A DNA stretch of 57,838 nucleotides from Caulobacteraceae bacterium (lineage in GTDB: Bacteria > Pseudomonadota > Alphaproteobacteria > Caulobacterales > Caulobacteraceae): positions 1-57,838 of the forward strand of contig JADZBR010000175.1 in NCBI GenBank assembly GCA_020852035.1. The letters are read 5' to 3'. Both the position numbers and the translations under genes were made by a program. How positions within the stretch are numbered: position 1 is the first letter of the stretch; each line of letters starts with the position of its first letter. Below, one piece after another: positions 92 to 51,294 of the stretch. The notes beneath the pieces were generated by a model that made no database searches, had not been told where the DNA came from, and saw only the letters and a program-made list of their open reading frames with translations.

Positions 92-757
92 TTGTGTCGC
101 CGACGGGCGACCCCGGGGGAATCGCCGACGTTGCTGGGCTGGAGGGATTTGTCGGGCGTGAAGGGCAGACCTGGGGCGTCGATCGACGCCGCTCCCGCTG
201 AAGTTTCCAGCGGCTACCTGACCCACTGGGCTGTCTCGCGAACGCGCCCGACCGCGATCGTGACGCTCGACATGCGGCTCGTCTGGGCGAACGAAGCGGC
301 GATCACGATGCTCCGCGAGGGTTCGACCTTCGGATTGCAGGGCGGCCAGCTCGTCTGCGTCGACAAGGCCCAGAACGGCGATTTCGCCGCGCTGGTCGCG
401 CGTTCGGACCATCGCCCCTGGCTCTGGGCCTGCGCGGCCGGCGACAACCACATGCTGGTCAAGGCCGAGCTCATCCATCCCGCCGGAGCCCCTCCGGCCG
501 CGGTTCTGGAGTTCTGCCCGGCGCAGGATTCCGACGCCTATCTGTGGGCCGACATCGGCAAGATCTTCGGGCTGACTCCGGCCGAAACCGCCGTGACGAA
601 GCGCGTCGTCGACGGCATTCGCGCCGACATGATCGCCGCCGATCTGAACGTCACCATCGAGACCGTCAGGACGCACCTTAGACGCGCGTACAGCAAGCTG
701 GCGGTCAACAGCCTCGGCCAGATGACGGCCCTGGTCGGCGGCTACAGGTTGCGTTGA
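92..757 (+). CDS. LuxR-family HTH transcriptional regulator with PAS-like N-terminal region
   Basis: C-terminal FGLTPAETAV...IAADLNVTIETVRTHLRRAYSKL is a LuxR/NarL HTH. N-terminal AIVTLDMRLVWANEAA is PAS-like. In-frame GTG at 158 after GGAGG is an alternative start. Confidence 0.85.
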   Translation: MCRRRATPGESPTLLGWRDLSGVKGRPGASIDAAPAEVSSGYLTHWAVSRTRPTAIVTLDMRLVWANEAAITMLREGSTFGLQGGQLVCVDKAQNGDFAALVARSDHRPWLWACAAGDNHMLVKAELIHPAGAPPAAVLEFCPAQDSDAYLWADIGKIFGLTPAETAVTKRVVDGIRADMIAADLNVTIETVRTHLRRAYSKLAVNSLGQMTALVGGYRLR

Positions 758-944: not shown

Positions 945-959
945 TTAAGGAAGCGTTAA
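945..959. promoter_or_regulatory. CtrA binding box (TTAA-N7-TTAA)
   Basis: TTAA GGAAGCG TTAA at 945-959, exact consensus spacing, within the AT-rich region upstream of the pilus operon. Confidence 0.65.
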
Positions 960-1218: not shown

Positions 1219-1815
1219 ATGAAACTCGCTTTGATCGGCGCTTCGGCGCTGTCGCTTCTGATGGCCACTTCGGCCTCGGCCGCCGGCCCGTCGCCGTCGC
1301 CCATCAACATCCCTGTCAATGGCAACGTTCCCGCCGCCTGCGGCGTGGGCCACCAATCCGGCGGCGGCCCCGGGCCCGGCTACTCTTTGACCGCCAACGT
1401 GGCTCTCGGTGACATCACCGACGCCAACGGCTTCCTTTCGGTCGCCGACAAGACCATCAACTTCGGCAACATCTGGTGCAACGGCGGCGCGACCTTGACC
1501 CTCGCTGTCACCCCGCTGTCCACCACGACCCCCCTGACCGATCCGGACTCCTTCGACAGTTCGTTCGCGATGGAGGTCACGAAAGGCGCTCTGACCAAGA
1601 GCATCTTCAGCTACTTCGGCGGCCCCACCCAGGTCAGCTCCACCGCCACCACGCCGGGTTCGCTGGTTTATGCCAACCCCGCGGCGTTCGAAACGGGCGG
1701 CGCCGGCTACGCCGAGGCGATCCTGCGGGTCCTGGCCCCGACCAGCGGCGGCAACGACCGCCCGATGGCCGGCGCCTACACGGGCAGCGTCACGCTGACC
1801 GTCACGTCCAACTAA
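1219..1815 (+). CDS. Chaperone-usher pilin-like subunit 1 (probable major subunit)
   Basis: ATG 1219 after GGAG; Sec signal MKLALIGASALSLLMATSASA; INIPVNGNVPAAC, WCN and C-terminal AGAYTGSVTLTV motifs; first gene of the operon and followed by a stem-loop. Confidence 0.8.
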   Translation: MKLALIGASALSLLMATSASAAGPSPSPINIPVNGNVPAACGVGHQSGGGPGPGYSLTANVALGDITDANGFLSVADKTINFGNIWCNGGATLTLAVTPLSTTTPLTDPDSFDSSFAMEVTKGALTKSIFSYFGGPTQVSSTATTPGSLVYANPAAFETGGAGYAEAILRVLAPTSGGNDRPMAGAYTGSVTLTVTSN

Positions 1816-1824
1816 CGGGAACGT

Positions 1825-1851
1825 CGGACGGGCGGCCACGCCGCCCGTCCG
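1825..1851 (+). terminator. 12-bp perfect stem-loop after pilin 1 (attenuator or mRNA-stabilising hairpin)
   Basis: CGGACGGGCGGC-cac-GCCGCCCGTCCG; no long U-tract follows. Confidence 0.65.
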
Positions 1852-1881
1852 GCCTCTTGCGTACCTTTCAAGGAAGCCCCG

Positions 1882-2511
1882 ATGCTCAAGTCCCTCGCAA
1901 AGCCCGCCGGAGCCCTCGTGGCGACCGCCGTGCTGGCGTGCGCGGGCGGGGCTTTCGCCCAGACCGTGACCGCCGTTTCGGCGGCGGCCCTGGGGGCCGG
2001 CTACACGGCCCAGGACGCGCCGCTCGGCGCGCCGACCGAATTGCGGATCGACCTTAAGGGTCGCGTGGCCCCGCGCTGCGACCTGGTGACGCCGCCGGTC
2101 GCGAGCGGGACCCTGCGGTTCAGCCGCCCCGGCCAGGGCTCAGCGCCCTTCGCCATCGACTGCAACGCGCCCTTCAACCTGCGCGTGGTTTCCCAGCACG
2201 GCGGCTTCGCCAGCGTCGACCCGACGCCCGGCGTCAAGACCCTGATGCCCTACGAGGTGGCCGTCGACGTCGGCACCGACCGGGGCCGCCGCAATCTCGG
2301 CTGGTGCCGGGCCGCGGCCCTGACGACCTCGGCCGCCGGCGGCTGCGTCTTTGCGCCCAACAGCCCCTCGCGCGGCTGGTCCTCCGGCGAGGACGCGGCC
2401 ATCAACCAGACCGGCGCGCTGCACCTGCGCTGGGCCGGCCAGGCCGAGGGCGCGCCGCTGCTCGGCGCCTACACCGACACCATCGTGATCGAGCTGGAGG
2501 TCCGCGCGTGA
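1882..2511 (+). CDS. Chaperone-usher pilin-like subunit 2
   Basis: Signal peptide; LRIDLKGRVAPRC, IDCNAPF, SQHGG, PYEV, C-terminal LGAYTDTIVIEL. Confidence 0.75.
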   Translation: MLKSLAKPAGALVATAVLACAGGAFAQTVTAVSAAALGAGYTAQDAPLGAPTELRIDLKGRVAPRCDLVTPPVASGTLRFSRPGQGSAPFAIDCNAPFNLRVVSQHGGFASVDPTPGVKTLMPYEVAVDVGTDRGRRNLGWCRAAALTTSAAGGCVFAPNSPSRGWSSGEDAAINQTGALHLRWAGQAEGAPLLGAYTDTIVIELEVRA

Positions 2512-2551
2512 CCCCCGCTCCCCGCCGCCCGGGCCCACCGAGGAGACTTCC

Positions 2552-3079
2552 GTGAAGGTTCACCGACTCTTGGCCCTCGGACTTGGCCTGGCGGCCAGCG
2601 CCACGGCGGCCTCGGCCCAGGACGCCACCCTGCTGCAGGTGAAGTCCAACGTGACGCCCTACTGCACGACCATGACCCCGACCGCTCCGGCTCCCTTGAA
2701 CGTCGGCGCGCTGACCGACGCCAACGGCCTGCTGGTCGCCACCTTCGGCGGCACGACGACGCGCGACCTCGGCGCCTATTACTGCAACGCCCCGGCCACG
2801 GTCACGCTGGCGGCCTCGCCGCTGATGCAGACCGCCGGCACGCCGGTCGCCTACCCCGACAGCTTCACCAACCGCATCGACTACATCGCCAACCTGACCT
2901 GGGACGACCTCAGCCTGCCGGCCAGCAGCGCCTCCCCGAGCCCGGCGACCCATGTCGGCACGGAAGCCAACACCGGCAATCTGATCATCTCGGTGTCCGA
3001 CCCGGACATCTCCGGCACGCAGCGGCCGATCGCCGGCGACTACGCCGGGACGGTCACCCTGACCGTCGTGCTGAACTAG
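2552..3079 (+). CDS. Chaperone-usher pilin-like subunit 3
   Basis: GTG start after GAGGAG; signal peptide; VKSNVTPYC, YCNAP, AGDYAGTVTLTV. Confidence 0.78.
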   Translation: MKVHRLLALGLGLAASATAASAQDATLLQVKSNVTPYCTTMTPTAPAPLNVGALTDANGLLVATFGGTTTRDLGAYYCNAPATVTLAASPLMQTAGTPVAYPDSFTNRIDYIANLTWDDLSLPASSASPSPATHVGTEANTGNLIISVSDPDISGTQRPIAGDYAGTVTLTVVLN

Positions 3080-3096
3080 TCGCGGAAGCCCGGATC

Positions 3097-3669
3097 ATGA
3101 TGCGTTCGACCCTCCTCGCTTTCGCCGCCGTCGCCGCCGCGCTCGCCGCCGCGCCGGCCGCCCTGGCCCTGCCGGCCTCCTCGACGATCACCGTCACCGG
3201 CGAGGTCGACAAAGCCTGCGCGATCGGCCAGCCGACGCTGGTCACCCTCAGCCTCAACGACCTGACCGGGCCCGACGGCCGGATCTCGGCCTCGCTGGCC
3301 AGCAGCTCGGTCGCCGCCTCGACCGAGATCGAGAACGTCTGGTGCAACGCGCCCAGCACGCTCTCGCTGGACGCCGCGCCGATGGCCCTGCTGCAGCCCT
3401 ATCTGCCGCTGACGCCGCCGGGCTTCACGCGCCTGCTCACCTATGACGCCACACTCACCGGCTGGCCGTCGCCGCTGGTCGACCGCCCGCTGATCGGCGA
3501 CGCGGCCAAGACCGCGACCGCGGACGAGGCGCACGCCGGGCCGAACCTGGTGCTCAGCATCTCCAGCCTGGAGGCGCTCAACGCCGCCGGCACCGCGCCC
3601 AACACCACCGCGGTCCTGGAGGCCGGCACCTACTCCGGTCAGGTCATCATCGGAGTCACCGTCCAGTAG
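3097..3669 (+). CDS. Chaperone-usher pilin-like subunit 4
   Basis: Signal peptide; ITVTGEVDKAC, WCNAP, AGTYSGQVIIGV. Confidence 0.78.
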   Translation: MMRSTLLAFAAVAAALAAAPAALALPASSTITVTGEVDKACAIGQPTLVTLSLNDLTGPDGRISASLASSSVAASTEIENVWCNAPSTLSLDAAPMALLQPYLPLTPPGFTRLLTYDATLTGWPSPLVDRPLIGDAAKTATADEAHAGPNLVLSISSLEALNAAGTAPNTTAVLEAGTYSGQVIIGVTVQ

Positions 3670-3671
3670 CC

Positions 3672-4274
3672 ATGCCGCCCGACCGCGCCCTTCTCCATGC
3701 CCTGTGCGGCGGCGCCCTCATCGCGGTCGCCGGCGGCGCCTTCACGTTCGCCGCGGCGCAGGAGAAGACGGTCGTGGTGACGGTGACCGGCTCGGCCGAG
3801 CAGAGCTGTTCCCTGGGCCAGCCCGAGCCGGACGGCGGCGCGCAGAGCAATTTCGACGCGCCGTCGGGGTCGATCTTCAGCATCTCGGTGCTCGGCGATC
3901 CCGTCACCCTCTCAACCCGTGCGGCCAGCCTGACCCTGGAGATGGAAGCCTCCTGCAACAGCGCCCACCGGGTGCTGCTGGCCAGCGACGGCAACGGTCT
4001 GTGGCGCAATGGCGTCACCACGCCGGTGGCCGGCTTCGGCTCGGCCGTGCCCTATCGCGCCAGCCTGCTGTGGGCCGACAGCGAGGAGAGCCTGATCGCC
4101 GAAGCCGCCCAGCGGCGGAACGTCGAGCGCGAGCTGCTGGTCAGCGGCCCCAGCGCCGGCCAGATGCGCCTGGAGTTCGCCATCGCCGCCGGCGACACCA
4201 ACGCCGGAACCGGCGCACCGCTGCTGGCCGGCGAATATTCCGACGTGCTGCGCGTCACCCTGGAGTCGCAATGA
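3672..4274 (+). CDS. Chaperone-usher pilin-like subunit 5
   Basis: Signal peptide; VTVTGSAEQSC, SCNSAH, SDGNGL, VPY, AGEYSDVLRVTL. Confidence 0.78.
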   Translation: MPPDRALLHALCGGALIAVAGGAFTFAAAQEKTVVVTVTGSAEQSCSLGQPEPDGGAQSNFDAPSGSIFSISVLGDPVTLSTRAASLTLEMEASCNSAHRVLLASDGNGLWRNGVTTPVAGFGSAVPYRASLLWADSEESLIAEAAQRRNVERELLVSGPSAGQMRLEFAIAAGDTNAGTGAPLLAGEYSDVLRVTLESQ

Positions 4275-4843
4275 TGACCCGGGCCGCCCGCACGCTCGCC
4301 ATCGTCGCCGCCCTGGCCACCGCCGCTTCGACAGCCGCGGCCCAGGACGTGCTGCCGTCGTCGACGATCCAGGCGACCTTCCGCGGCGTGGCGCCCGCCG
4401 GCTGCCGCCTAGACGCGCCGACCGCGCCGTCCACCTCCAACGCCACCGTCGGCGGCCTGGCGCCGGGCTCGGCCGAGATCGCCTTCAACCCGCTGGTTGG
4501 CGATGACAGCGCGCCCCTCGGCGCCTCGGTGAGGCTGGTGCTGCCGGCGATCTGCAACCAGGCCCACACCCTCAGCCTGACCAGCGTCAACGGCGGGCTG
4601 AAGAACGCCGCTGGCCCGCCGCCTTCCGGGCCCTTCCGGGCGGTGCTGCCCTACAATGTGGTGGTGACCTGGGCGGGCGAGGATCAGTCGTTCGCCTCCG
4701 GCCAGGGCGCGACGCTGATGAACATCGGCGACGCCGTCTCCGACGTGGTCACCGTCACCATCCAGCTGCCGGCCGGGGGCGCGCCCCTGACGGCCGGGAC
4801 CTATTCGGACGAGCTCGTCCTCGAGCTCGGTGTGGCCGGGTGA
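4271..4843 (+). CDS. Chaperone-usher pilin-like subunit 6
   Basis: ATGA overlap with the previous stop (true start lies inside ORF 3704..4843); signal peptide; FRGVAPAGC, ICNQAH, SVNGGL, LPY, AGTYSDELVLEL. Confidence 0.78.
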   Translation: MMTRAARTLAIVAALATAASTAAAQDVLPSSTIQATFRGVAPAGCRLDAPTAPSTSNATVGGLAPGSAEIAFNPLVGDDSAPLGASVRLVLPAICNQAHTLSLTSVNGGLKNAAGPPPSGPFRAVLPYNVVVTWAGEDQSFASGQGATLMNIGDAVSDVVTVTIQLPAGGAPLTAGTYSDELVLELGVAG

Positions 4844-4921
4844 GGCGGGCATGACGCTTTCGACCTCTTCGACCGCTCGCCTGAACAACCAGCCGGGGAC
4901 GCCACGGGCGCGCCAGGCCGG

Positions 4922-5563
4922 ATGAAGGACATCGCCATGAAGACCATCGCCAGCCTCGCCGCCGCCGCCGCTCTCCTGGCGTGCGCGGGCCAAGCCTCAG
5001 CAGCCGACCCGTCCGTCACCCTCTTGGGGATGGCCGAAGGCTCCTGCAGCCTGCCCGACACCTGGGTGTTCGTGACCCAGACCGGCGGCGCCTCGGCCGC
5101 GCAGTTCTCGGGCATGACCTGGTCGATCCCGACCGAGGCGTTCGCGACCAGCTCTTCCGAAGCGGTCGCAGGAGATGAGTATTCGATCCGCCTTCGCGGC
5201 CTGGCCTTCTGCAACACCTCGCACAGCGTGCTGCTGAGCAGCACTCGTGGCGGTCTGAAGAACGGCCTCAGCGCACCGCCGCCGCCCGGCTTCGCCAACC
5301 GGCGCGCCATGCGCTACGAGGCCCAGTGGAGCACGGAAGCGGTTGGCAGCAGCTCGGTGGGCGGCCTGGGTCCGACGGTCGTGCTGACCCCGACGGGGCC
5401 GGCGCAGGCGGCGATCATGGACTACATCGTCAGCTCTTCCCTGCCGCCGCCCGGCGTTCGCGGCTTCGACGTCCAGATGAGCCTGCAGCGCGACCCGATC
5501 GCCGAACCCCTGGTCGCCGGCGCCTATAGCGACACCCTCACCATCACCCTGTCGGTCGACTGA
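4922..5563 (+). CDS. Chaperone-usher pilin-like subunit 7
   Basis: Signal peptide (alternative start MKTIAS at 4937); LLGMAEGSC, FCNTSH, STRGGL, AGAYSDTLTITL. Confidence 0.78.
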   Translation: MKDIAMKTIASLAAAAALLACAGQASAADPSVTLLGMAEGSCSLPDTWVFVTQTGGASAAQFSGMTWSIPTEAFATSSSEAVAGDEYSIRLRGLAFCNTSHSVLLSSTRGGLKNGLSAPPPPGFANRRAMRYEAQWSTEAVGSSSVGGLGPTVVLTPTGPAQAAIMDYIVSSSLPPPGVRGFDVQMSLQRDPIAEPLVAGAYSDTLTITLSVD

Positions 5564-5645
5564 CGGACGAGACGAATTTCATCGGTCTCGGGCCGGCCGG
5601 GACCATTGTGCAGCCAAAGCCGCGACGGCGGCTGATGGAGAGTTC

Positions 5646-6410
5646 ATGCGCCGCCCGATGCGAGTCCTTGCAGCCGCCCTTGGCCTGATTTTCTGTTTCG
5701 CCGGCGTCGGCGCCGTCCGGGCCATGACCGTCCAGCCGGTGGCGGTCGACCTGCGCATGTCGGGCCGCGAGATGAGCGCGCCGGTGCGGGTCGAGAACAA
5801 CGGCCCCAATCCCCTGCCGATCGAGATCCGCATCGTCGAGACCGAGTTCTCGCCGGACGGGGTGAAGGCGTCGGACAATCTCTCCGACGAGGTCATCGCC
5901 TTCCCGCCCCAGGCCCTCATCCCGCCGGGTCAGACCCAGGTGTTCCGCCTGCAGTATGTCGGCGACCCCGGCTCGGAGCGCAGCAAGCACTACTACGCCG
6001 AAGTGGCCCAACTGCCGGTCGAACTTCCGGAGGGCCAGTCGGCCATCCAGATTCTCTACAATTTCCAGGTGATGGTGAACGTCGCCTCGGTGATCGGCGG
6101 CCCGTCCGACCTGTCGGTGGTCAGCGCGGAGGCGGCCACGAACGCCGACGGCAAGAACGTCGCGGCCTTCACCATCCGCAACAGCGGGCTCAACTACGGC
6201 TATCTCAGCCGCTCGCAGATCGTCGTCACCCAGAAGGACGCCGGCGGCCACGAACTGCTGAAGAAGACCCTCAGCGCCAACGACGTTCAGCAGCAGATCG
6301 GCTTCGGCCTGGTGGGCCCGGAAAGCACCCGCCGCTTCGTCTCCCCGATCGAACTGGAGTCGGCCGAGGGCGTCGTCGAAGTCTCGCTGTCGAAGCCGCG
6401 CAACCGCTAG
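5646..6410 (+). CDS. Periplasmic pilus assembly chaperone (PapD/FimC-like fold)
   Basis: Signal peptide; MTVQPVAVDL, VRVENNG, AFPPQALIPPGQTQVFRLQY, second domain FTIRNSG; directly upstream of the usher. Confidence 0.88.
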   Translation: MRRPMRVLAAALGLIFCFAGVGAVRAMTVQPVAVDLRMSGREMSAPVRVENNGPNPLPIEIRIVETEFSPDGVKASDNLSDEVIAFPPQALIPPGQTQVFRLQYVGDPGSERSKHYYAEVAQLPVELPEGQSAIQILYNFQVMVNVASVIGGPSDLSVVSAEAATNADGKNVAAFTIRNSGLNYGYLSRSQIVVTQKDAGGHELLKKTLSANDVQQQIGFGLVGPESTRRFVSPIELESAEGVVEVSLSKPRNR

Positions 6411-6413
6411 GCC

Positions 6414-8915
6414 ATGAAGCGGAGGCGGCCAAACGCGGGTCCGGCGTGCGGCGTCGCGCTGCTGGCCGCCGGCGCGGCCTGGCCGGCCTGTGCGGAAGAC
6501 CCGATCTGCGACCTGATCCAGGCGGCCACCGCGCAGGACGCCGCGCCGGAGGCCGCCAAGCCTCCCGCCCCTCGCCAACTCAACCCTTCCGGCCGCACGC
6601 TCACCATCGTCGCGCCGCTGAAGGACGGGGCCATCTACCTCGGCGATGTCGAGATGCGAGTGCTCCCCGACGATCGGATAGAGATCGCCGCCGGCCAGGT
6701 GCTCGACCTCCTCAAGAAGACCCTCGATCCGGACGCGCTCGAACCCCTGCGGGCGGAGGCGCTGCCCGGGGCCTTCCTGCCGCCTGAACGCCTCGCCGCC
6801 CTGGGCCTGCCCATCGCCTTCGACCCTCGGGTCCTGGAGCTTTCGCTGTCGATCCCGCCCGCGGCCCGCTCTCGCCAGGCGATCGGCATTTCCGACCTGG
6901 ACCGCGAAACCTACGGTGACTTCGCCCAGCCCGCGAAGTTCGCCGCCTTCCTCAACCTCGCCGGCTCGACCGACTACGTCCACAAGGGGGCCAAGACGGG
7001 CCTTGGCGACCCGCTCGCCCTGATCGACGGGGCGGTCCGCTACAAGGGCGTGGTGCTGGAATCGGAAGGGACCTGGAGTTCTTACGACGGCGGCTTCACA
7101 CGCAACGGCACGCGCCTGGTCTACGACGACGCGCGGCATCTCAACCGTTGGGTCGTCGGCGACGTCACCCTGCAGACCCGCGGCTTCCAGTCGTCGGATC
7201 AGCTCGCCGGCATCAGTATCACCAAGAGCTTTTCGCTGCTCGACCCCCAGCGCAATGTCGCCCCCCGCGGCGCGCGCGCCTTCAGCCTGGACCGGCCATC
7301 GACCGTCGAGGCGATCGTCAACGGCCGCACGGTCCGGACCCTGCGCCTGCAGCCGGGGACCTATGACGTCAGCGACTTTCCGTTCGTCCAGGGCTCGAAC
7401 GACATCGAGCTGAACATCGTCGACGACGCGGGGCGCCGCGAAGTCGTCGCGTTCTCGATCTTCCTGGATCGCACGCAGCTGGCCCCGGGCCTTTCGGAAT
7501 ACAGCCTCTTCGCCGGCGTCCGCGCCGACCGCATGGGCCGCGGCATCCACTATACCAGTGACTATCAGGCGGCCGGCTTCTACCGCTACGGGTGGCGCGA
7601 GAACATGACCCTGGGCGCCAACTTCCAGGCCGGGCGAGAGGGCGGCATGGTCGGAGGCGAGACGGTGTGGGGCATGCCGCTCGGCACCCTCGGCATGGAC
7701 CTGGCGGCCAGCCACCTCAAGGGCGTCGGATCCGGCTATGCCGCGAACATCACCTTCGATCGGCTGATGCAGGGCGAAAGGGGCGCCACTTCGCTGGTCG
7801 CGGGGCTCGAACTGCGCAGCACGGCGTTCGGCTCGGTCGGACAGTTCGGCATCGTCAATCCTTACTCGGTCAACGCCTCGATCGGGGTGAACCGGTCGTT
7901 CGGCGACGCCTCGTTCGTGGGCGTGCAACTGCGCTACGCCAAGGGCCGCGGCGACGTGCAGGACGAACGTGCGGCGCGCCTGACCTATGGCCGGCGCCTG
8001 ACCGAAGCCATGAATGTCATCGTCGATCTCGACTGGCGGGACGGCGGTTTCGCTTCGGGCGCGGGCTTCAGCGTGGCGCTGGTTCGCCGGTTCGGGGCCA
8101 CCGGGTCGGCGCGCGTGGAGTATGACAGCGTCGATAAACGCACACGCCTCGGGTATCAGACCTCCGGTGGCCGCGGCGTAGGCGCCTGGAGCGCTTCCGG
8201 CAATCTGGACGTCGCCTCGGACGTCTACGGCTTCAATGGGTCGGCCGCCTATGCGGGCAACCGCGCGGACTTCGGCCTGGCGCACAACACCGCCTACTCG
8301 GCGCTTGAGAGCAAGATCAGCGACCAGCGCACCTCGTTGCGCGCCTCGACCGCGATCGCTTTCGCCGACGGCGCCTTCGCGGTCGGCCGCCAGGTCGGCG
8401 ACGGCTTCGCGATCTTCCGGCCCTACGAGGGCGCCGACGATGTCGCGATCGAAGTCGAGCCCTCCGAAGACGGCTACTACGCGCGATCCGGCCTGCTCGG
8501 CCCGGCCCTCTACGGCCAGATCAGCGCCTACTCGCCGCGCACCGTCATCGTCGATGCGCCCGACGCCCCGGCCGGGTTTGACATCGGCCAGGGCGCGCTG
8601 CGGGTTCGCGCGCCCTACAAGGCGGGCTATGTCGCCACCATCGGGTCGGACTACGGCGTCACGGTGATCGGCCGGCTGCTTTCCGAGACGGACGCGCCCC
8701 TGACGCTGCTGGCGGGCGTCGCGATCGAACAGGGCGGCGAAGGCCGGCGCGTCCAAGTGTTCACCAACCGCCAGGGCGCCTTCGGCGCCGGGGGCTTGAA
8801 AGCCGGTCGCTGGCGGATCGAAATGCCGGGCGACAACCCGTTGACCTACGACCTGCGCATCCCCGAAAGCCCCGACGGCGTGGCGCGCGTCGGCGACCTT
8901 CGGCCGGTCAGATAG
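6414..8915 (+). CDS. Fimbrial biogenesis outer-membrane usher
   Basis: 833 aa; GDVTLQTRGFQSSDQLAGISI, plug STVEAIVNG...LQPGTYDVSDFP..GSNDIEL, GFYRYGWRENMTLG, C-terminal FTNRQGAF. Confidence 0.92.
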   Translation: MKRRRPNAGPACGVALLAAGAAWPACAEDPICDLIQAATAQDAAPEAAKPPAPRQLNPSGRTLTIVAPLKDGAIYLGDVEMRVLPDDRIEIAAGQVLDLLKKTLDPDALEPLRAEALPGAFLPPERLAALGLPIAFDPRVLELSLSIPPAARSRQAIGISDLDRETYGDFAQPAKFAAFLNLAGSTDYVHKGAKTGLGDPLALIDGAVRYKGVVLESEGTWSSYDGGFTRNGTRLVYDDARHLNRWVVGDVTLQTRGFQSSDQLAGISITKSFSLLDPQRNVAPRGARAFSLDRPSTVEAIVNGRTVRTLRLQPGTYDVSDFPFVQGSNDIELNIVDDAGRREVVAFSIFLDRTQLAPGLSEYSLFAGVRADRMGRGIHYTSDYQAAGFYRYGWRENMTLGANFQAGREGGMVGGETVWGMPLGTLGMDLAASHLKGVGSGYAANITFDRLMQGERGATSLVAGLELRSTAFGSVGQFGIVNPYSVNASIGVNRSFGDASFVGVQLRYAKGRGDVQDERAARLTYGRRLTEAMNVIVDLDWRDGGFASGAGFSVALVRRFGATGSARVEYDSVDKRTRLGYQTSGGRGVGAWSASGNLDVASDVYGFNGSAAYAGNRADFGLAHNTAYSALESKISDQRTSLRASTAIAFADGAFAVGRQVGDGFAIFRPYEGADDVAIEVEPSEDGYYARSGLLGPALYGQISAYSPRTVIVDAPDAPAGFDIGQGALRVRAPYKAGYVATIGSDYGVTVIGRLLSETDAPLTLLAGVAIEQGGEGRRVQVFTNRQGAFGAGGLKAGRWRIEMPGDNPLTYDLRIPESPDGVARVGDLRPVR

Positions 8916-8926
8916 GAGACCCTGAG

Positions 8927-9844
8927 ATGAACCGTCGACTTGTCCGGGCCGTGCTCGCGTCGACCGCCATCGCCCTGCCCTCGGCGGCCTGGGCGCAGTG
9001 CGCGACGGTGGACCCGATCGTCGTCCCGCCGGTGCGGATCGACGCTCTGGACGCCTCCGGACCGGGAGAGCTCGCCCAGCCGTTCGTGCTCACGTTCCGG
9101 CGCACCGGCGTGGGGACTGACCCCATCGCCCTGCGCTACCAGATCGTCGATGAAGACTCGAGCGTGCGCTCGCGCGTCGGCCTGACGCGGGGTCCCATCG
9201 TGGAATGGCAGAGCCCGGACTCCTCGCGCTATATCGGAAGCTCGCGCAGCGAAGCCTATTCCCTGCTCCGCTCGGGCCAGATCGTACTCGAGAAGAACCA
9301 GCAGGCGGTGCAGCGCGACGTCGTGCTGCGTCTGGTCGATCTTCGCAACGAGGACTTCGCCGCCGGCGTCTACCGCGAGCAGTTCACCGTCCGCTTCTGG
9401 TGCGGCGACAACGAACAGACGATCCCGTTCGAGACGCAAGGCGCGATCGCCGTATCGGTGGCGGTGCCCAATGTGCTCAGCGCCAATGTCGCCGGGGCGT
9501 CGGCCGCCGGCCAGATCGACTTTCAGGATTTCGCCCTGCGGTCGCGGACCCTGCAGATATCGGTGCGCAGCACAGGTCCCTATCGGGTCACCGCCCGAAG
9601 CCTGAACGGCGGCGAGTTGCGGCGCGAAACCGCTGTCTCGGCGACCTCGGCCGACCGTATCCGCTATGTCGCCGCGCTCGACGGCGAAGCCCTGGCGGTC
9701 GACGGCGGCTCAGCGCAGGTCCAGGCCCGCGCCGGGCTGGCGGGGCGTCAGATGCCGCTGGAAGTGAACGTCGAAAGCGTGGCCGACAAGCACGCCGGGA
9801 CCTACGCCGACACCCTGCTCCTGACGCTGATGCCGGCCAACTAG
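8927..9844 (+). CDS. Two-domain pilus tip subunit / putative adhesin
   Basis: Signal peptide, 305 aa, two pilin-like halves ending in AGVYREQFTV and AGTYADTLLLTL; follows the usher. Confidence 0.7.
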   Translation: MNRRLVRAVLASTAIALPSAAWAQCATVDPIVVPPVRIDALDASGPGELAQPFVLTFRRTGVGTDPIALRYQIVDEDSSVRSRVGLTRGPIVEWQSPDSSRYIGSSRSEAYSLLRSGQIVLEKNQQAVQRDVVLRLVDLRNEDFAAGVYREQFTVRFWCGDNEQTIPFETQGAIAVSVAVPNVLSANVAGASAAGQIDFQDFALRSRTLQISVRSTGPYRVTARSLNGGELRRETAVSATSADRIRYVAALDGEALAVDGGSAQVQARAGLAGRQMPLEVNVESVADKHAGTYADTLLLTLMPAN

Positions 9845-9850
9845 AGCCCG

Positions 9851-10279
9851 TCAGGACTTCGCTTCGATGCGAACGCCCAGGGCCGGGCAATGCACCGACG
9901 AATGCCCCAGGTCGAGCTTGACCCGCACCGACCGCGCGTTGGGCTGATCTGAATCGGTGAGCATCGTCTCGCCCCCCGGCGACAGCGGAATGCGCTCGCC
10001 GCCAACCCAGAGCGCAGCATGGCGCAGGTTGGCCGGATGCTGCATCAGCACGCGATAGCCGCGCGGCGCGTTGCAGAATTCATGCGCCGATCCCAGGTCG
10101 ACTATACCGTGGCGGTTAGGCCGGACATGATGGCTGGAGAGTTCGACCCGACAGATCACCGGCACCTGCGCACGAACCGAAATCGTGGTGCTCGCCGAAC
10201 CGTCGGCGGCGAACGCCTGCGAGGAGGCGCCGGTCGCGATCGCCAGCACGGCGGCGGCCAGGATGGTCCTGTTCGACAT
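9851..10279 (-). CDS. Small secreted pilin-like protein, convergent with the pilus operon
   Basis: MSNRTILAAAVLAIATGASSQAFA signal; ISVRAQVPVIC and FCNAP match the pilins; lacks the C-terminal AGxY strand. Confidence 0.68.
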   Translation of the reverse strand: MSNRTILAAAVLAIATGASSQAFAADGSASTTISVRAQVPVICRVELSSHHVRPNRHGIVDLGSAHEFCNAPRGYRVLMQHPANLRHAALWVGGERIPLSPGGETMLTDSDQPNARSVRVKLDLGHSSVHCPALGVRIEAKS

Positions 10280-44836: not shown

Positions 44837-44977
44837 GCCGTCGCCTCCCTGGCGAACGAGGCGTCGGCGCCTCAGCCTAGAAATAGCGGTTCGTGCGGGA
44901 AATCCAATTCGTCCGCCGCCGACAAGGCCGGGATGCCGCGAGAACCGGCGGTGGGCCTCACACAGCGCGGGCGGCGC

Positions 44978-45001
44978 TTGACCTTCCCACGGTTGGAAAC
45001 C
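44978..45001 (+). promoter_or_regulatory. CueR-type promoter/operator upstream of pcoA
   Basis: TTGACCTTCCCACGGTTGGAAACC: -35 hexamer overlapping the CueR dyad. Confidence 0.75.
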
Positions 45002-45036
45002 GCATCTCCGGCCGAGTCGCTACCACAGGATGTTTG

Positions 45037-46869
45037 ATGCCCGGGCGCAGACCTGACCTCGACCGACGGACGCTGATCAGAAGCGCGGGGATTCTCGGCG
45101 GCGGCGCGGCGATCGCCTCGCTGCTCCCCGGCTGGGCGCACAGCGCCGCGCAAGGTCTGCCTGGCGAACTGCCGACCTTGTCGGGCGAAGACATCCGGCT
45201 GACCATCGGCCACACGCCCATCACCATCGAAGGCGAGCGGCGCCACGCCGTCACCATCAACGGCACTGTGCCTGGGCCACTGCTTCGGTTGAAGGAGGGG
45301 CGGCGCGTCCGTATCTCCGTCACCAATACGCTCGAGGAATGGACCTCGATCCATTGGCACGGGCTGCTGGTCCCCTCCGAGATGGACGGGGTGCCGGGCG
45401 TGAGCTTTCCGGGAATCGCGCCGGGCCAGACCTTCGTCTACGAGTTCCCGGTCATCCAATCTGGGACGTACTGGTACCATAGCCATTCGGGCCTGCAGGA
45501 GGCGGAAGGCCACTACGCGCCGATCGTCATCGAACCGGCCAGGCCCGATCCGGTCGCATTCGACCGCGAGCATGTGATCGTGCTCGCCGATCACAGCGAG
45601 ATGCACCCGCATCTGATCTTCCGCCGGCTGAAGCAGCAGGGCGGGGTCTTCAACCAGCAGCGCCAGACCCTCGCCGACCTCCTGGCAGGCAAGGACCAGA
45701 CGCTGGCCGAGCGGGTCGAGTGGGCGAAGATGCTGATGGACCCCACCGACATCTCCGACGTCACCGGGGCGGCGATGACCTTTCTGCTCAACGGGCACGG
45801 GCCGAAGGACAACTGGACCGGTCTCTTCGCCCCCGGCGAACGGGTGCGGCTGCGCTTCGTCAACGCCGCTGCGCAGATGATCTTCAACATCCGCATCCCC
45901 GGGCTGAAGCTCACCGTGGTGGCGGCCGACGGCCAGAACGTGCGGCCTGTGGAGGTCGACGAGTTCCAGATCGGCAACGCCGAGACCTACGACATCATCG
46001 TCCAGCCTATCGAGGATCGCGCCTTCACCATAGTGTCCGAAGCCATCGACCGGTCAGGCATGGGCCGCGGCACGCTGGCCCCGAGGATGGGGATGAGCGC
46101 ACCGGTCCCGCCGCTGCGCGAGCGGCCGGTCCTGACCATGAGGGACATGGGAATGGACATGTCCGCCCACGGCGCATCGGGCGGAATGGATCACTCCGGC
46201 ATGGCGGGCATGGACCACGGAGCCATGCCCGAAACGGCGTCCGCGCCGCCGCCCGGGATGGCGCCGCCGAGAGCGCGAGGCTCCGACGTCATGGGCGAAA
46301 TGGTGGGCATGGACATGAACATGCTCAACTACGCCCTGGCGCCGCAGATCAAACCTGGACCGGGCGTGCAGATGATCTCGCCCATGCCCGTGGATCGCAC
46401 CGGCGAGCCGGGTCTGGGGCTGGCCAGCGTCGGTCATCGGGTCCTGGTCTACACCGATCTGATCGCCCTGGAGCCCAATCCGGATCAGCGCGCGCCGGAC
46501 CGCGCCCTGGAGATTCGTCTGACCGGCAATATGGAGCGCTTCATCTGGGGCTTCGACGGCTGGACCTTCAGCGAGAAACCGCCGGCCTATTCGTTCCGCG
46601 CCGGCGAGCGGGTGCGGGTGACGCTGGTCAACGACTCGATGATGACCCACCCCATCCACCTGCACGGCCACTTCTTCGAGCTGGTCCACGGGCCGGTGGG
46701 CCACATGCCGCGCAAGCACACAGTCAACGTCATGCCGGGCGGAAAGGTCAGTTGGGATTTCACCGCCGAGGGCGGCGACTGGGCCTTCCACTGCCACATG
46801 CTCTACCACATGCACGCCGGGATGTTTCAGGTCTTCAAGGTGCGCCCCAGCCAGGGAGCCGGCGCATGA
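45037..46869 (+). CDS. pcoA: Copper-resistance multicopper oxidase (CopA/PcoA), Tat-exported
   Basis: DRRTLI twin-arginine signal; IHWHG, YWYHSH, HPIHLHGH, FHCHMLYHMHAGM; Met/His-rich insert. Confidence 0.94.
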   Translation: MPGRRPDLDRRTLIRSAGILGGGAAIASLLPGWAHSAAQGLPGELPTLSGEDIRLTIGHTPITIEGERRHAVTINGTVPGPLLRLKEGRRVRISVTNTLEEWTSIHWHGLLVPSEMDGVPGVSFPGIAPGQTFVYEFPVIQSGTYWYHSHSGLQEAEGHYAPIVIEPARPDPVAFDREHVIVLADHSEMHPHLIFRRLKQQGGVFNQQRQTLADLLAGKDQTLAERVEWAKMLMDPTDISDVTGAAMTFLLNGHGPKDNWTGLFAPGERVRLRFVNAAAQMIFNIRIPGLKLTVVAADGQNVRPVEVDEFQIGNAETYDIIVQPIEDRAFTIVSEAIDRSGMGRGTLAPRMGMSAPVPPLRERPVLTMRDMGMDMSAHGASGGMDHSGMAGMDHGAMPETASAPPPGMAPPRARGSDVMGEMVGMDMNMLNYALAPQIKPGPGVQMISPMPVDRTGEPGLGLASVGHRVLVYTDLIALEPNPDQRAPDRALEIRLTGNMERFIWGFDGWTFSEKPPAYSFRAGERVRVTLVNDSMMTHPIHLHGHFFELVHGPVGHMPRKHTVNVMPGGKVSWDFTAEGGDWAFHCHMLYHMHAGMFQVFKVRPSQGAGA

Positions 46870-47846
46870 TCCGGGCCGCGCTGATCGTCGGCGCGCTGAC
46901 GGCGACCGCCACCGTCGCCGCCGCGCAAGACCCGCACGCCGGGCATCATATGCCGCCGCCGGCCGATCCTCATGCGGGTCACGATATGCCGGCGCCCGGA
47001 CCGCAGGACCCTCATGCCGGCCACGACATGTCGGCTGCGCCCGCCAGCGCCGATCCCCACGCAGGGCGCGACACGGGGCCGCCGGCCGCGGCCCCCGCCG
47101 CCGCGCAGCTGCCGGTCGGCCAAGCCCCGGCGCCGGCCCCCATCACGGACAGCCTGGCCGACCGCGTCTTCGGCGCAGCGGCGATGGATCGAGCGCGGGA
47201 TGTCCTGGCGCACGAGCACGGCGGCGATCGGGCCTCCAAGCTGCAGGCCGATCTGCTGGAGTGGGCGCCCGCGGGCGGCGCCTACGGCTGGGAAGTCGAA
47301 GGCTGGTGGGGCGGCGACATCGACCGCCTGGCCTTCAAGACCGAGGGCGAGGGCCAAAAGAGCGAAGGGGTGGAGGCCGCCGAGGTCCAGCTGCTCTATT
47401 CGCGCGCCCTCGCCCGCTACACCGACGTGCAGGCCGGCCTGCGCTACGACATCGAGCCACGATCGCGGGCCTACGCCGTCCTGGCTGTCGATACGCTGTT
47501 CCCCTACTGGTTCGAGGCCGAAGGCTCACTGTTCGTGTCGGACAAGGGCGACCTCCTGGCGCGCGTCGAGGGCGCCTACGACCTTCGGCTGACCCAGCGC
47601 CTGATCCTGCAGCCGCGAGCGGAGCTGGACTTCGCCGCCCAGGACATCCCCGAAGCCGGCGCCGGCTCGGGCCTTTCCACCGCCGAACTGGGCCTGCGCC
47701 TGCGCTACGAGATCCGCCGCGAGTTCGCGCCCTACATCGGCGTTTCCTACGAACGCGCCTATGGCGGTACGGCGGACTTCCGCCGCGCGGACGGAGAGGA
47801 TCGGGAGACCACCCGGTTCGTCGTCGGTCTCCGGGCGTGGTTTTAG
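46866..47846 (+). CDS. pcoB: Copper resistance outer-membrane protein B (CopB/PcoB)
   Basis: Signal peptide, DPHAGH repeats, GWWGGDIDRL.FKTEGE, LRLRYEIRREFAPYIGV, GLRAWF. Confidence 0.93.
   Translation: MIRAALIVGALTATATVAAAQDPHAGHHMPPPADPHAGHDMPAPGPQDPHAGHDMSAAPASADPHAGRDTGPPAAAPAAAQLPVGQAPAPAPITDSLADRVFGAAAMDRARDVLAHEHGGDRASKLQADLLEWAPAGGAYGWEVEGWWGGDIDRLAFKTEGEGQKSEGVEAAEVQLLYSRALARYTDVQAGLRYDIEPRSRAYAVLAVDTLFPYWFEAEGSLFVSDKGDLLARVEGAYDLRLTQRLILQPRAELDFAAQDIPEAGAGSGLSTAELGLRLRYEIRREFAPYIGVSYERAYGGTADFRRADGEDRETTRFVVGLRAWF
46929..47069 (+). repeat. Four DPHAG(H/R) metal-binding repeats in the PcoB N-terminus
   Basis: DPHAGHHM, DPHAGHDM, DPHAGHDM, DPHAGRD. Confidence 0.8.
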
Positions 47847-47866
47847 GGGCGCGTTCCGGTGCGCCC

Positions 47867-47890
47867 TTGACCCTCCCACCGCGGGAATCC
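47867..47890 (+). promoter_or_regulatory. CueR-type promoter/operator upstream of copZ
   Basis: TTGACCCTCCCACCGCGGGAATCC. Confidence 0.75.
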
Positions 47891-47926
47891 CCAGATGGTC
47901 GGCGAAACCAGCCAGAGGAGCGTTTG

Positions 47927-48130
47927 ATGTTGCGTTACACCGTGGAGGACATGACCTGCGGGCATTGCGAACAGGCCGTCACCCGCGCGATCTCGACGCT
48001 CGACGCGCGCGCCGAAATCACCGTCGACTTGCCCGCGAAGCTGGTCGAGGTGAAGACTTCGGCCTCGCCGGGCTCCGTCGTCGCCGCGATGCGGGAAGCT
48101 GGCTATACGCCGCGGGAAGTTCGGCCGTAG
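47927..48130 (+). CDS. copZ: Copper chaperone (HMA domain)
   Basis: MLRYTVEDMTCGHC...AGY, 67 aa, GAGGAG RBS. Confidence 0.9.
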   Translation: MLRYTVEDMTCGHCEQAVTRAISTLDARAEITVDLPAKLVEVKTSASPGSVVAAMREAGYTPREVRP

Positions 48131-48288
48131 AACCCTGCGCACGCGCCGCGGGCTTGTAGCTGGAACTGCTAGCGGTCGCATTCGATGGTCTGTTCTCGCC
48201 ATCTCCCCCGGCGCTCGCGTCCCGCCCCCTTCCGATCGGCCGCGGGCGCACCACGCAGTCGTCCATCTGCGTCATAGGCGCCGTCCCC

Positions 48289-48311
48289 TTGACCTTCCCA
48301 TCATGGGAATC
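48289..48311 (+). promoter_or_regulatory. CueR-type promoter/operator upstream of the Cu-ATPase
   Basis: TTGACCTTCCCATCATGGGAATC; TACCTG lies 19 bp downstream of the -35. Confidence 0.82.
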
Positions 48312-48340
48312 CCTACCTGAGCCGGGCAAAGGAGGCGCGC

Positions 48341-50823
<2,483 letters not shown>

Positions 50824-50827
<4 letters not shown>

Positions 50828-51294
50828 ACATCGGCCAAGCTTCGCGCGCCTCGGGCGTCACCGCCAAGATGATCCGCTACTACGACGAGATCGGCCTGGT
50901 GCGCCCGGGGAGCCGCACCGAGGCCAACTACCGCGAGTACGACGAGGTGCAGGTCAACGAACTGCGCTTCATCAGGCGCGCCCGCAGCCTGGGCTTCTCG
51001 ATGGAGGAAATCGCCCACCTGCTGTCGCTCTGGCGCGACCGCGCCCGGCCCAGCCGGGAGGTCAAGGCGATCGCCGACCGCCACCTCGCCGACCTCGACG
51101 CGCGGATCGCCGAGATGCAGGCGATGGCCGACACCCTGCGCCGCCTCTCGGACTGCTGCGCGGGCGACGAACGTCCCGACTGCCCGATCCTCGCGGACCT
51201 GACGGGCGGTCTGGAAGCCGGAACCACCGCTTCGGCGGCTGGCGGGGGCGGTCGCAGTGGAAGGACGCCAGGTCGAACCCGCCCGATCGCTTGA
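50824..51294 (+). CDS. cueR: Cu(I)-responsive MerR-family regulator
   Basis: [18 protein letters not shown]; [13 protein letters not shown]. Confidence 0.95.

What the first reader, a model, noticed from the sequence alone, without database searches (positions are those of the whole stretch)
1219..9844. Non-classical chaperone-usher pilus with seven tandem pilins in a Caulobacteraceae-like genome
Seen: seven consecutive secreted 175-213 aa proteins share an N-terminal beta-strand ending in Cys (e.g. INIPVNGNVPAAC), a central CN motif and a C-terminal GxY(S/T/A)(G/D) strand. They are followed by one chaperone, one usher and a two-domain tip protein. Known: characterised archaic (Csu-type) and alternate (CFA/I-type) operons have fewer subunit genes, and Caulobacter adhesion is known mainly through Tad pili and holdfast. 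Inference: this is a poorly characterised alphaproteobacterial CU clade that builds either a multi-segment fibre or several alternative fibres on one usher. It is the best candidate for an undescribed system in the window.
Basis: partly seen in the sequence, partly recalled or inferred. Interest (0 to 1): 0.85.

Follow-up and report, generated by a model that had tools for sequence, protein, structure and literature searches.

The report
Anchor-less, cell-cycle-linked chaperone-usher pilus
This Caulobacter-family operon encodes seven different pilus subunits, an export pore from a structurally unstudied branch, and a folding chaperone that lacks both known subunit-gripping residue sets, and it sits behind a cell-cycle (CtrA-type) DNA motif, so it likely builds one multi-part surface fibre that is likely switched with the cell cycle and may be gripped in an undescribed way.

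Summary
In detail: seven signal-peptide pilins, a chaperone, an usher and a tip protein. The model of one pilin (pLDDT 97) best matches CfaB, CupE1 and CsuA/B.

The usher falls in a 100/100 clade apart from Csu-type sigma and from alpha. That clade also holds Synechocystis Slr0019 and Vibrio ushers, so it is not purely alphaproteobacterial. Seven is not defining: close relatives have 2-9 pilins. Pilins group by gene slot across genera, and a hairpin follows p1. This favours one heteropolymeric fibre over alternative fibres.

1. The chaperone lacks the non-classical anchor (CsuC Arg89/Tyr196: 0 of 18 close relatives, against 13 and 12 of 13 sigma controls) and the classical one (0 of 18).
2. 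A perfect CtrA box lies upstream, 1 of 6 in the genome. The other five lie at hemE (two), ftsZ, flgB/fliO and eipA. 13 of 18 close loci keep it.
3. A conserved convergent mini-pilin (p8) follows the tip gene.

Verdict: new variant of a known kind; nothing was tested at the bench. The scan earlier noted a multi-pilin alphaproteobacterial usher locus on other DNA (e1-6691434).

The parts
92..757 (+). LuxR-type (GerE HTH, weak PAS) regulator gene; start uncertain
   Evidence: PF00196 E 2.4e-8; homologues flank many related loci, some with two copies
945..959 (.). Perfect CtrA-box motif TTAA-N7-TTAA, about 260 nt upstream of p1
   Evidence: 1 of 6 perfect sites in the 3.2-Mb genome; perfect in 13 of 18 close loci
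1219..1815 (+). Pilin p1, likely the major shaft subunit
   Evidence: first gene; followed by a hairpin; pilin profile E 4.9e-27
1823..1853 (+). 14-bp RNA hairpin right after p1 (likely mRNA stabiliser or partial terminator)
   Evidence: z -4.2, 0 of 200 shuffles as stable; strong hairpins also follow the first pilin in L032 and L033
1882..2511 (+). Pilin p2, four-Cys class; the slot shared by all 13 loci in the pilin tree
2552..3079 (+). Pilin p3 (p1-like class)
3097..3669 (+). Pilin p4; modelled as a beta-sandwich with an unpaired N-terminal extension
   Evidence: AlphaFold2 pLDDT 97.2; fold matches to CU pilins
3672..4274 (+). Pilin p5 (slot conserved in 9 of 13 loci)
4271..4843 (+). Pilin p6 (slot conserved in 9 of 13 loci); overlaps the p5 stop
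4922..5563 (+). Pilin p7 (slot in 4 of 13 loci)
5646..6410 (+). Periplasmic chaperone; Tyr117/Tyr186/Leu222 at the columns of CsuC Arg89/Arg174/Tyr196; no classical Arg8/Lys112
6414..8915 (+). Outer-membrane usher of a clade separate from Csu-type sigma and from alpha
   Evidence: 28% identity over 770 aa to a member of the Slr0019 cluster
8927..9844 (+). Tip protein: N-terminal domain of unknown ligand plus C-terminal pilin domain
9851..10279 (-). p8: convergent 142-aa secreted mini-pilin with donor-like strand and Cys pair but no GxY strand motif
   Evidence: in 17 of 18 close loci (profile built from 13 loci, most of them in this set); hhalign to pilins 81.5% over 47 columns; chaperone complex weak pass

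Best explanation
The locus is a complete non-classical chaperone-usher operon that likely builds a single heteropolymeric surface pilus, with p1 the likely bulk shaft subunit, p2-p7 likely low-copy adaptor or segment subunits, and transcription likely tied to the cell cycle through CtrA. Shown: gene content, conserved order, pilin fold of the p4 model, usher clade, residue states of the chaperone, and the CtrA-type motif with its conservation. Inferred: subunits cross the inner membrane by Sec, are held by the chaperone's donor strand, and polymerise tip-first at the usher by donor-strand exchange of their Cys-ending N-terminal strands. The hairpin after p1 likely gives excess p1 mRNA. The chaperone has neither described carboxylate anchor, and one chaperone serves subunits whose tails run 11 to 19 residues past the GxY tyrosine. 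So it likely grips subunits mainly through beta-strand contacts, or through a rewired polar site (conserved Lys114/His115/Tyr117/Tyr186), rather than clamping a fixed C-terminus. p8, made from its own promoter, is likely a further chaperone client such as a base anchor or terminator. The probable role is adhesion or aggregation alongside the Tad pilus, which this genome also encodes.
For: Fold: the p4 model has pLDDT 97.2 with residues 1-15 unpaired; the top 8 VIA-align rows are all CU subunits (CfaB, CS17, CfaE, CupE1, CsuA/B, CooA; Z 6.4-7.1, rmsd 3.1-3.5 over 114-118 residues except CupE1 at 9.6); the top 10 Foldseek rows are CU pilins. Slots: 80 pilins from 13 loci group by gene position across genera; orthologues 45-61% vs paralogues 14-35%; this genome has one usher, one chaperone and no other pilin. 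Hairpin. Chaperone: Arg89 column Y17/L1, Arg174 column Y18, Tyr196 column L17/M1, classical Arg8 and Lys112 0 of 18; sigma controls keep Arg89 13 of 13 and Tyr196 12 of 13; across 50 clade chaperones none has both. In CsuC the double mutant gave near-zero subunit recovery (PMC4654587, passages). Tails: 79 of 80 close pilins run 11 or more residues past the GxY Tyr and 0 of 80 end in an aromatic, vs 22 of 22 sigma subunits with exactly 10 ending Y/F/W. CtrA: the other five perfect boxes lie at hemE/kinase-pyrophosphorylase (two), ftsZ, flgB/fliO and eipA; box consensus from bioRxiv 739516 and 442541 (passages). p8-chaperone model: score 0.54 vs best control 0.13, contacts agree 91% or more, partner pLDDT 77 or more; weak support (the mark was reached by 116 of 157 solved and 2 of 215 mismatched pairs, but at 0.60 or under by only 18 solved and both mismatches). 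Flp pilin genes.
Against: No fibre, expression or binding data. Fold Z-scores near 7 are middling and no Foldseek hit reached E 0.001. Only p4 gave a good model (p1 without an alignment failed), and no pilin-pilin order was modelled. Long pilin tails also occur in alpha pilins (13-16 residues past the Tyr/Trp in four alpha pilins read), and the Ecp chaperones keep Arg89, so tail length alone does not show anchor loss. The Tyr196 column is in a gappy region; 13 of 50 clade chaperones (cyanobacteria-like branch, Vibrio) keep Arg89. The hairpin-after-first-pilin pattern is clear only in the window's subgroup and L035/L045, not in L036-L043. The p1-like class expands independently in some lineages (L035, L042), which could mean interchangeable shaft subunits. 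7 of the 13 perfect CtrA boxes come from near-identical loci of one genus; 5 of 18 close loci lack a perfect box (one cut by a contig end, three with one mismatch, one none). A box does not show activation rather than repression. The p8 pass is weak and may reflect likeness to solved chaperone-pilin pairs.
Confidence: 0.6

Rival explanations
1. Several alternative fibres: p1, p3 and p4 (one sequence class) are interchangeable shaft subunits that make different pili on the one usher, and only p2, p5, p6 and p7 are adaptors.
For: The p1/p3/p4 class is the one that varies in number and duplicates independently (up to 6 copies in L035 and L042); p1 and p3 are the closest paralogues, 35%.
Against: p1, p3 and p4 each keep their own orthologue and position in other genera. 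p3-p6 are tightly packed (gaps under 20 nt or overlapping), and the only strong hairpin follows p1, which fits one transcript with one abundant product.
Confidence: 0.2
2. An ordinary divergent archaic (sigma) operon: the chaperone still clamps the subunit C-terminus in the CsuC manner, using shifted or substituted residues, and the differences are sequence drift with no new mechanism.
For: CsuC is the only PDB hit of the chaperone (E 1.5e-7). The ML tree puts the clade sister to Csu-type sigma (89/89). Cyanobacterial systems are already called archaic. CfaA has a two-residue shifted Tyr/Arg pair, and two close chaperones have Tyr two positions before the Tyr196 column. Tyr is fully conserved at the Arg174 column and a Lys lies three residues before the Arg89 column.
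Against: The Arg described as the hallmark of non-classical chaperones is absent in 18 of 18. The terminal aromatic at +10 is absent in 80 of 80 subunits. Tails differ by up to 8 residues within one operon.
Confidence: 0.3
3. The system makes a short non-fimbrial surface structure or coat, or modulates another appendage (as proposed for Synechocystis CccS/CccP/Slr0019 and type IV pili), instead of a long pilus.
For: The closest experimentally touched relative is Slr0019, whose system was reported to affect type IV pili and adhesion without a defined fibre (bioRxiv 130278 and PMC4390875, passages). This genome has Flp/Tad pilins, and CtrA also drives Tad pilin expression (recalled).
Against: A full set with a tip protein, donor strands on all seven subunits and a hairpin marking an abundant first subunit is the layout of fibre-forming operons (Csu; CupE).
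Confidence: 0.12

Closest known systems
Synechocystis PCC 6803 CccS/CccP/Slr0019 (slr1667, slr1668, slr0019)
   Same: Same usher clade (FastTree 100 with Slr0019 added); 28% identity over 770 aa to a member of its 90% cluster.
   Different: One subunit and a separately located usher. The related Leptolyngbya chaperone keeps Arg89; Slr1668 itself was not examined. No structure or defined fibre in the passages read.
Archaic (sigma) Csu pilus of Acinetobacter baumannii and CupE of Pseudomonas aeruginosa
   Same: Gene order pilins-chaperone-usher-tip; a Cys pair after the donor strand; full-length profile match to CupE1 (E 0.002); CsuC is the best chaperone hit; likely sister clade.
   Different: Three pilins instead of seven. 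CsuC Arg89/Arg174/Tyr196 are replaced. Subunits do not end in an aromatic at +10. CsuD matches only 28% of the usher length at 26% identity. Nesting among these ushers is rejected in two tested placements.
Alternate (alpha) CFA/I, CS1-type and ECP pili
   Same: Best fold scores of p4 are to CfaB and CS17, tied with sigma pilins; long C-terminal tails; a sister relation to alpha is not rejected (p-AU 0.19).
   Different: Alpha ushers form their own 100/99 clade; EcpB and EcpE keep Arg89 and Tyr196; CFA/I-type pilins lack the Cys pair (recalled).
Classical multi-subunit pili (type 1 fim, yad, P pili)
   Same: One chaperone and usher serving several minor subunits plus a tip (fim and yad have four pilins plus tip).
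   Different: Classical Arg8/Lys112 anchor absent in 18 of 18; minor subunits precede the chaperone here; ushers are far apart.

Membership tests
Chaperone-usher pathway (general) | PapD-like chaperone and outer-membrane usher genes together with subunit genes | tested here: met
   PapD_N above cut-off; Usher E 1.7e-5 below cut-off; homologues annotated as ushers
Chaperone-usher pathway (general) | Subunits with pilin Ig-like fold and free N-terminal donor strand | tested here: met
   p4 model and fold searches; only 1 of 7 modelled well, the others by profile homology
Chaperone-usher pathway (general) | Polymerisation into a surface fibre by donor-strand exchange | not testable with these tools
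   needs EM and mutants
Classical CU (gamma, kappa, pi) | Chaperone Arg8/Lys112 carboxylate anchor | tested here: not met
   0 of 18 close chaperones; FimC, PefD, FaeE, YadV and others have R/K
Archaic (sigma), Csu/CupE type | Usher nested in the CsuD-containing clade | tested here: not met
   separate 100/100 clade; two nested placements rejected, p-AU about 0.001; other nested placements not tested
Archaic (sigma), Csu/CupE type | Chaperone Arg89 + Tyr196 (+ Arg174) anchor | tested here: not met
   Tyr117/Leu222/Tyr186 in the window; 0 of 18 close and 0 of 50 clade chaperones have both
Archaic (sigma), Csu/CupE type | SCPU (PF05229) subunits ending in an aromatic residue 10 after GxY | tested here: not met
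   3 of 72 pilins match SCPU weakly, best E 4e-4; 0 of 80 end in an aromatic vs 22 of 22 controls
Archaic (sigma) in the broad Nuccio-Baumler sense (with cyanobacterial ushers) | Usher groups with Slr0019 and is sister to Csu-type ushers | tested here: inconclusive
   groups with Slr0019; sister to sigma 89/89, but alpha-sister not rejected; the 2007 paper could not be read
Alternate (alpha) | Usher in the EcpC/CS1-type clade | tested here: not met
CtrA regulon | TTAA-N7-TTAA box in the promoter region | tested here: met
CtrA regulon | CtrA binding and cell-cycle-dependent transcription | not testable with these tools
   needs EMSA/ChIP and synchronised cultures

The most novel reading that the evidence does not exclude
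This is the type example of a third biochemical class of chaperone-usher assembly: a chaperone that captures subunits without clamping their C-terminal carboxylate. Freed from that constraint, the operon expanded to 7-9 specialised subunits plus a separately expressed mini-pilin terminator. It is also a chaperone-usher pilus wired directly to the CtrA cell-cycle circuit, giving stalked bacteria a second developmentally timed pilus that the model C. crescentus appears to lack.
Probability: 0.3. Interest if true: 0.78.

Novelty: new variant of a known kind. Interest (0 to 1): 0.58.

Why it matters
C-terminal carboxylate anchoring is described as common to classical and non-classical pilus chaperones, with two known chemistries (PMC4654587). 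A widespread clade with neither would show a third solution, or show that the anchor is dispensable. The pilin profile finds 2,827 clusters at 50% identity. The question is directly testable with one chaperone-subunit structure. The same usher clade contains the long-unresolved Synechocystis CccS/CccP/Slr0019 system, so a structure here would inform that question too. A CtrA-controlled chaperone-usher pilus would add an adhesin to the Caulobacterales life cycle beyond Tad pili and holdfast. Cultured carriers exist (a named relative is Brevundimonas lenta).

Tried and rejected
Structure and Atlas: p1 folded without an alignment was unusable (pLDDT 41). The Atlas could not read p1. The Atlas result for a p8 homologue gave only unnamed clusters and a sub-threshold SCPU lead (TM 0.56). 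The p8 profile had no meaningful PDB hit, and the usher had no PDB sequence hit.

CryoSeek TLP-1 fibrils: TLP-1b scored Z 6.1, rmsd 4.9, 10% identity, and the paper's top model was flavobacterial. Rejected as this system.

Genome scans: the search for related loci gave one locus. The PF00345 genome scan missed even this genome's chaperone, so its blanks are uninformative. PF00577 rang weakly in this genome (E 2e-4) and in none of the control genomes but E. coli; C. vibrioides is among the controls. That is only a weak hint that it lacks an usher. No sigma-70 promoter was found.

Sequencing runs: no RNA holder listed; no reads were laid.

Trees: mixture-model trees did not finish. In one search a wrong L125 ORF entered the tree; it was corrected, which used 30 of 51 rows (21 near-redundant or gappy rows dropped for run time). 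In the pilin tree some rows kept part of the signal peptide; columns under 60% filled were dropped.

Literature: nine searches showed no paper on this operon type. The library lacks most subscription journals and Nuccio and Baumler 2007. Supplements (e.g. the chaperone alignments of PMC4654587) were not opened and could already include members of this clade. Scan notes: no note held all words, and none matched the chaperone by sequence.


Full report
Observation. The window holds, on the + strand, seven signal-peptide proteins of 175-213 aa (1219-5563), a chaperone (5646-6410), an usher (6414-8915) and a 305-aa tip protein (8927-9844). The chaperone passes the PapD_N cut-off; the usher matches PF00577 below cut-off; the seven pilins have no real Pfam or NCBIfam match. 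Three further features belong to the locus: a LuxR-type gene upstream (92-757), a convergent 142-aa secreted gene p8 (9851-10279), and a TTAA-N7-TTAA motif at 945-959. The genome (88% complete) has no second usher, chaperone or pilin of this kind.

The subunits are pilins. A profile of 72 pilins has two invariant Cys and a near-invariant GxY Tyr. It matches CupE1 over its full length (E 0.002) and the C-terminal parts of Caf1 and CfaB. AlphaFold2 on a 150-row alignment gave p4 a mean pLDDT of 97.2, a beta-sandwich with the first 15 residues unpaired. The ten best Foldseek rows are CU pilins, none reaching E 0.001. The eight best rows of the wide search are CfaB, CS17, CfaE, CupE1, CsuA/B and CooA at Z 6.4-7.1: middling scores, tied between alpha and sigma. 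The family is large: 2,827 clusters at 50% identity with E up to 0.001.

Distribution and subunit number. The usher matched 28 of 200 other genomes of the family, 16 of them closely (E below 1e-130), and 0 of 18 of the same genus. It matched 20 of 400 other genomes of the class at E up to 1e-30, and plasmids of Sphingobium, Novosphingobium, Leptolyngbya, Vibrio and Photobacterium at 28-40%. Among 13 close loci the pilin count is 7, 7, 9, at least 6 (contig end), 9, 7, 7, 9, 8, 2 (near a contig end), 2, 4 and 3. More distant loci mostly have 1-4 where detected. Seven is therefore not a defining number, and classical fim and yad operons have four pilins plus a tip. It does exceed Csu and CupE, with three each.

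One fibre or several. In a tree of 80 pilins the rows group by gene slot across genera: the p2 slot in all 13 loci, p5 and p6 in 9, p7 in 4. The p1/p3/p4 class is the part that varies in number (few columns, many forks unresolved). Slot orthologues between the window and L032 are 45-61% identical, paralogues 14-35%. A 14-bp hairpin follows p1 (z -4.2), and strong hairpins follow the first pilin in L032 and L033, but the pattern is not clear in L036-L043. I infer fixed roles and one heteropolymer with p1 as bulk subunit. Interchangeable shafts within the p1 class remain possible.

Usher clade. Two placements inside Csu-type sigma are rejected (p-AU about 0.001); a sister relation to alpha is not (0.19). 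Synechocystis Slr0019 was identified through its cluster. A member of that cluster is 28% identical to the window's usher over 770 aa, and Slr0019 falls inside the clade. Its one studied member has disputed functions and no defined fibre (passages).

Chaperone. PMC4654587 (passages) shows that CsuC anchors the subunit's C-terminal carboxylate with Arg89, Tyr196 and Arg174. It calls that Arg the most characteristic feature of non-classical chaperones, and states that classical ones use a different basic pair. The window's chaperone has CsuC as its only PDB hit but carries Tyr117, Leu222 and Tyr186 at those columns. Among 18 close chaperones none has Arg at the 89 column, none has Tyr at 196, all have Tyr at 174, and none has the classical pair. 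13 of 13 sigma controls (10 from the same family) keep Arg89 and 12 keep Tyr196. Of 50 chaperones of the whole clade (with some near-duplicates and three second chaperones), 13 keep Arg89, 3 have Tyr196 and none has both. In step with this, 22 of 22 sigma subunits end on an aromatic exactly 10 residues after the GxY Tyr, whereas 79 of 80 close pilins run 11-19 residues and none ends on an aromatic. Tails of 11, 12 and 19 occur in one operon. Against over-reading: alpha pilins also have long tails while Ecp chaperones keep the Arg, CfaA uses a shifted pair, and conserved Lys114/His115/Tyr117/Tyr186 could form a rewired site. Either outcome differs from the two described chemistries, but this is inference from alignments.

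Regulation. TTAA-N7-TTAA occurs six times in the 3.2-Mb genome; other spacings from 3 to 12 give 0-3 each. Five sites lie at hemE/kinase-pyrophosphorylase (two), ftsZ, between flgB and fliO, and eipA. That eipA is a CtrA target and that this is the CtrA box is from bioRxiv 442541 and 739516 (passages); that the hemE region is the replication origin and that ftsZ and flagellar genes are CtrA targets is recalled. The sixth site precedes p1. A perfect box precedes the first pilin in 13 of 18 close loci and is the only perfect site in each of those regions. Seven of the 13 are near-identical loci, so there are about four independent spacer sequences. Of the five without, one is cut by a contig end, three have one mismatch and one has none. 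Direct CtrA control is likely; its sign is unknown, and the LuxR protein may add a second input.

p8. It is present in 17 of 18 close loci (the profile was built from 13 loci, most of them in this set) and has at least 135 homologues; the 120 listed have no Pfam match. Its first 50 residues align with the pilin donor strand and Cys pair (hhalign 81.5%). The chaperone-p8 model scored 0.54 against a best control of 0.13, with contacts agreeing 91% or more and partner pLDDT 77 or more. This is weak support: the mark was reached by 116 of 157 solved and 2 of 215 mismatched pairs, but at 0.60 or under by only 18 solved pairs and both mismatches, and it may reflect likeness to solved chaperone-pilin complexes. 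A terminator or anchor role is a guess from its separate transcription and short body.

Verdict. It works like an archaic chaperone-usher pilus but fails the Csu-type membership tests on usher placement, chaperone anchor and subunit C-terminus; membership in sigma in the broad sense is open. Nine paper searches found no description, within a library that lacks most subscription journals and the 2007 classification; supplements were not read. An earlier scan note on other DNA (e1-6691434) describes another alphaproteobacterial usher with 8-12 pilins; I did not check it.

Noticed in passing
G000 C153:11799-12106: A ctrA-like gene (found with recalled motifs) runs off the end of its contig after about 102 codons; the rest is not found in the assembly with two further motifs.
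   Followed up: partly
L052-L061 (Caulobacteraceae genomes): Canonical Csu-type sigma operons also occur in this family, sometimes in the same genome as the clade described here (e.g. G006, G120, G140, G170); some genomes carry two operons of the new clade (G140, G176, G195).
   Followed up: partly
L067 (Vibrio alginolyticus plasmid NZ_CP046807.1), L123, L127: Members of the same usher clade with two chaperone genes; in the Vibrio pair one keeps the Arg89 column and one does not.
   Followed up: no
L066, L078, L109, L113-L118, L121, L122: A cyanobacteria-like branch keeps Arg89 but has a conserved Asn at the Tyr196 column, an intermediate state of the anchor.
   Followed up: partly
L036-L043, L064-L065: Two LuxR-type genes bracket the locus; the tip proteins and one pilin slot carry long C-terminal tails (14-19 residues in the pilin; a Cys-containing tail in the tip).
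   Followed up: no
L049:8141 and L127:10034: Perfect CtrA-type boxes also precede two operons outside the close subclade.
   Followed up: no
window 44887-51291: ORFs that look like a copper-resistance cluster (multicopper oxidase, CopB-like, heavy-metal P-type ATPase, MerR-type regulator); judged by eye from translations, not scanned.
   Followed up: no
The genome search: None of the 18 same-genus genomes searched had a match to this usher, although genomes of other genera have 60%-identical copies: patchy inheritance or transfer. GC of the operon (0.68-0.73 per kb) is like the rest of the window.
   Followed up: no
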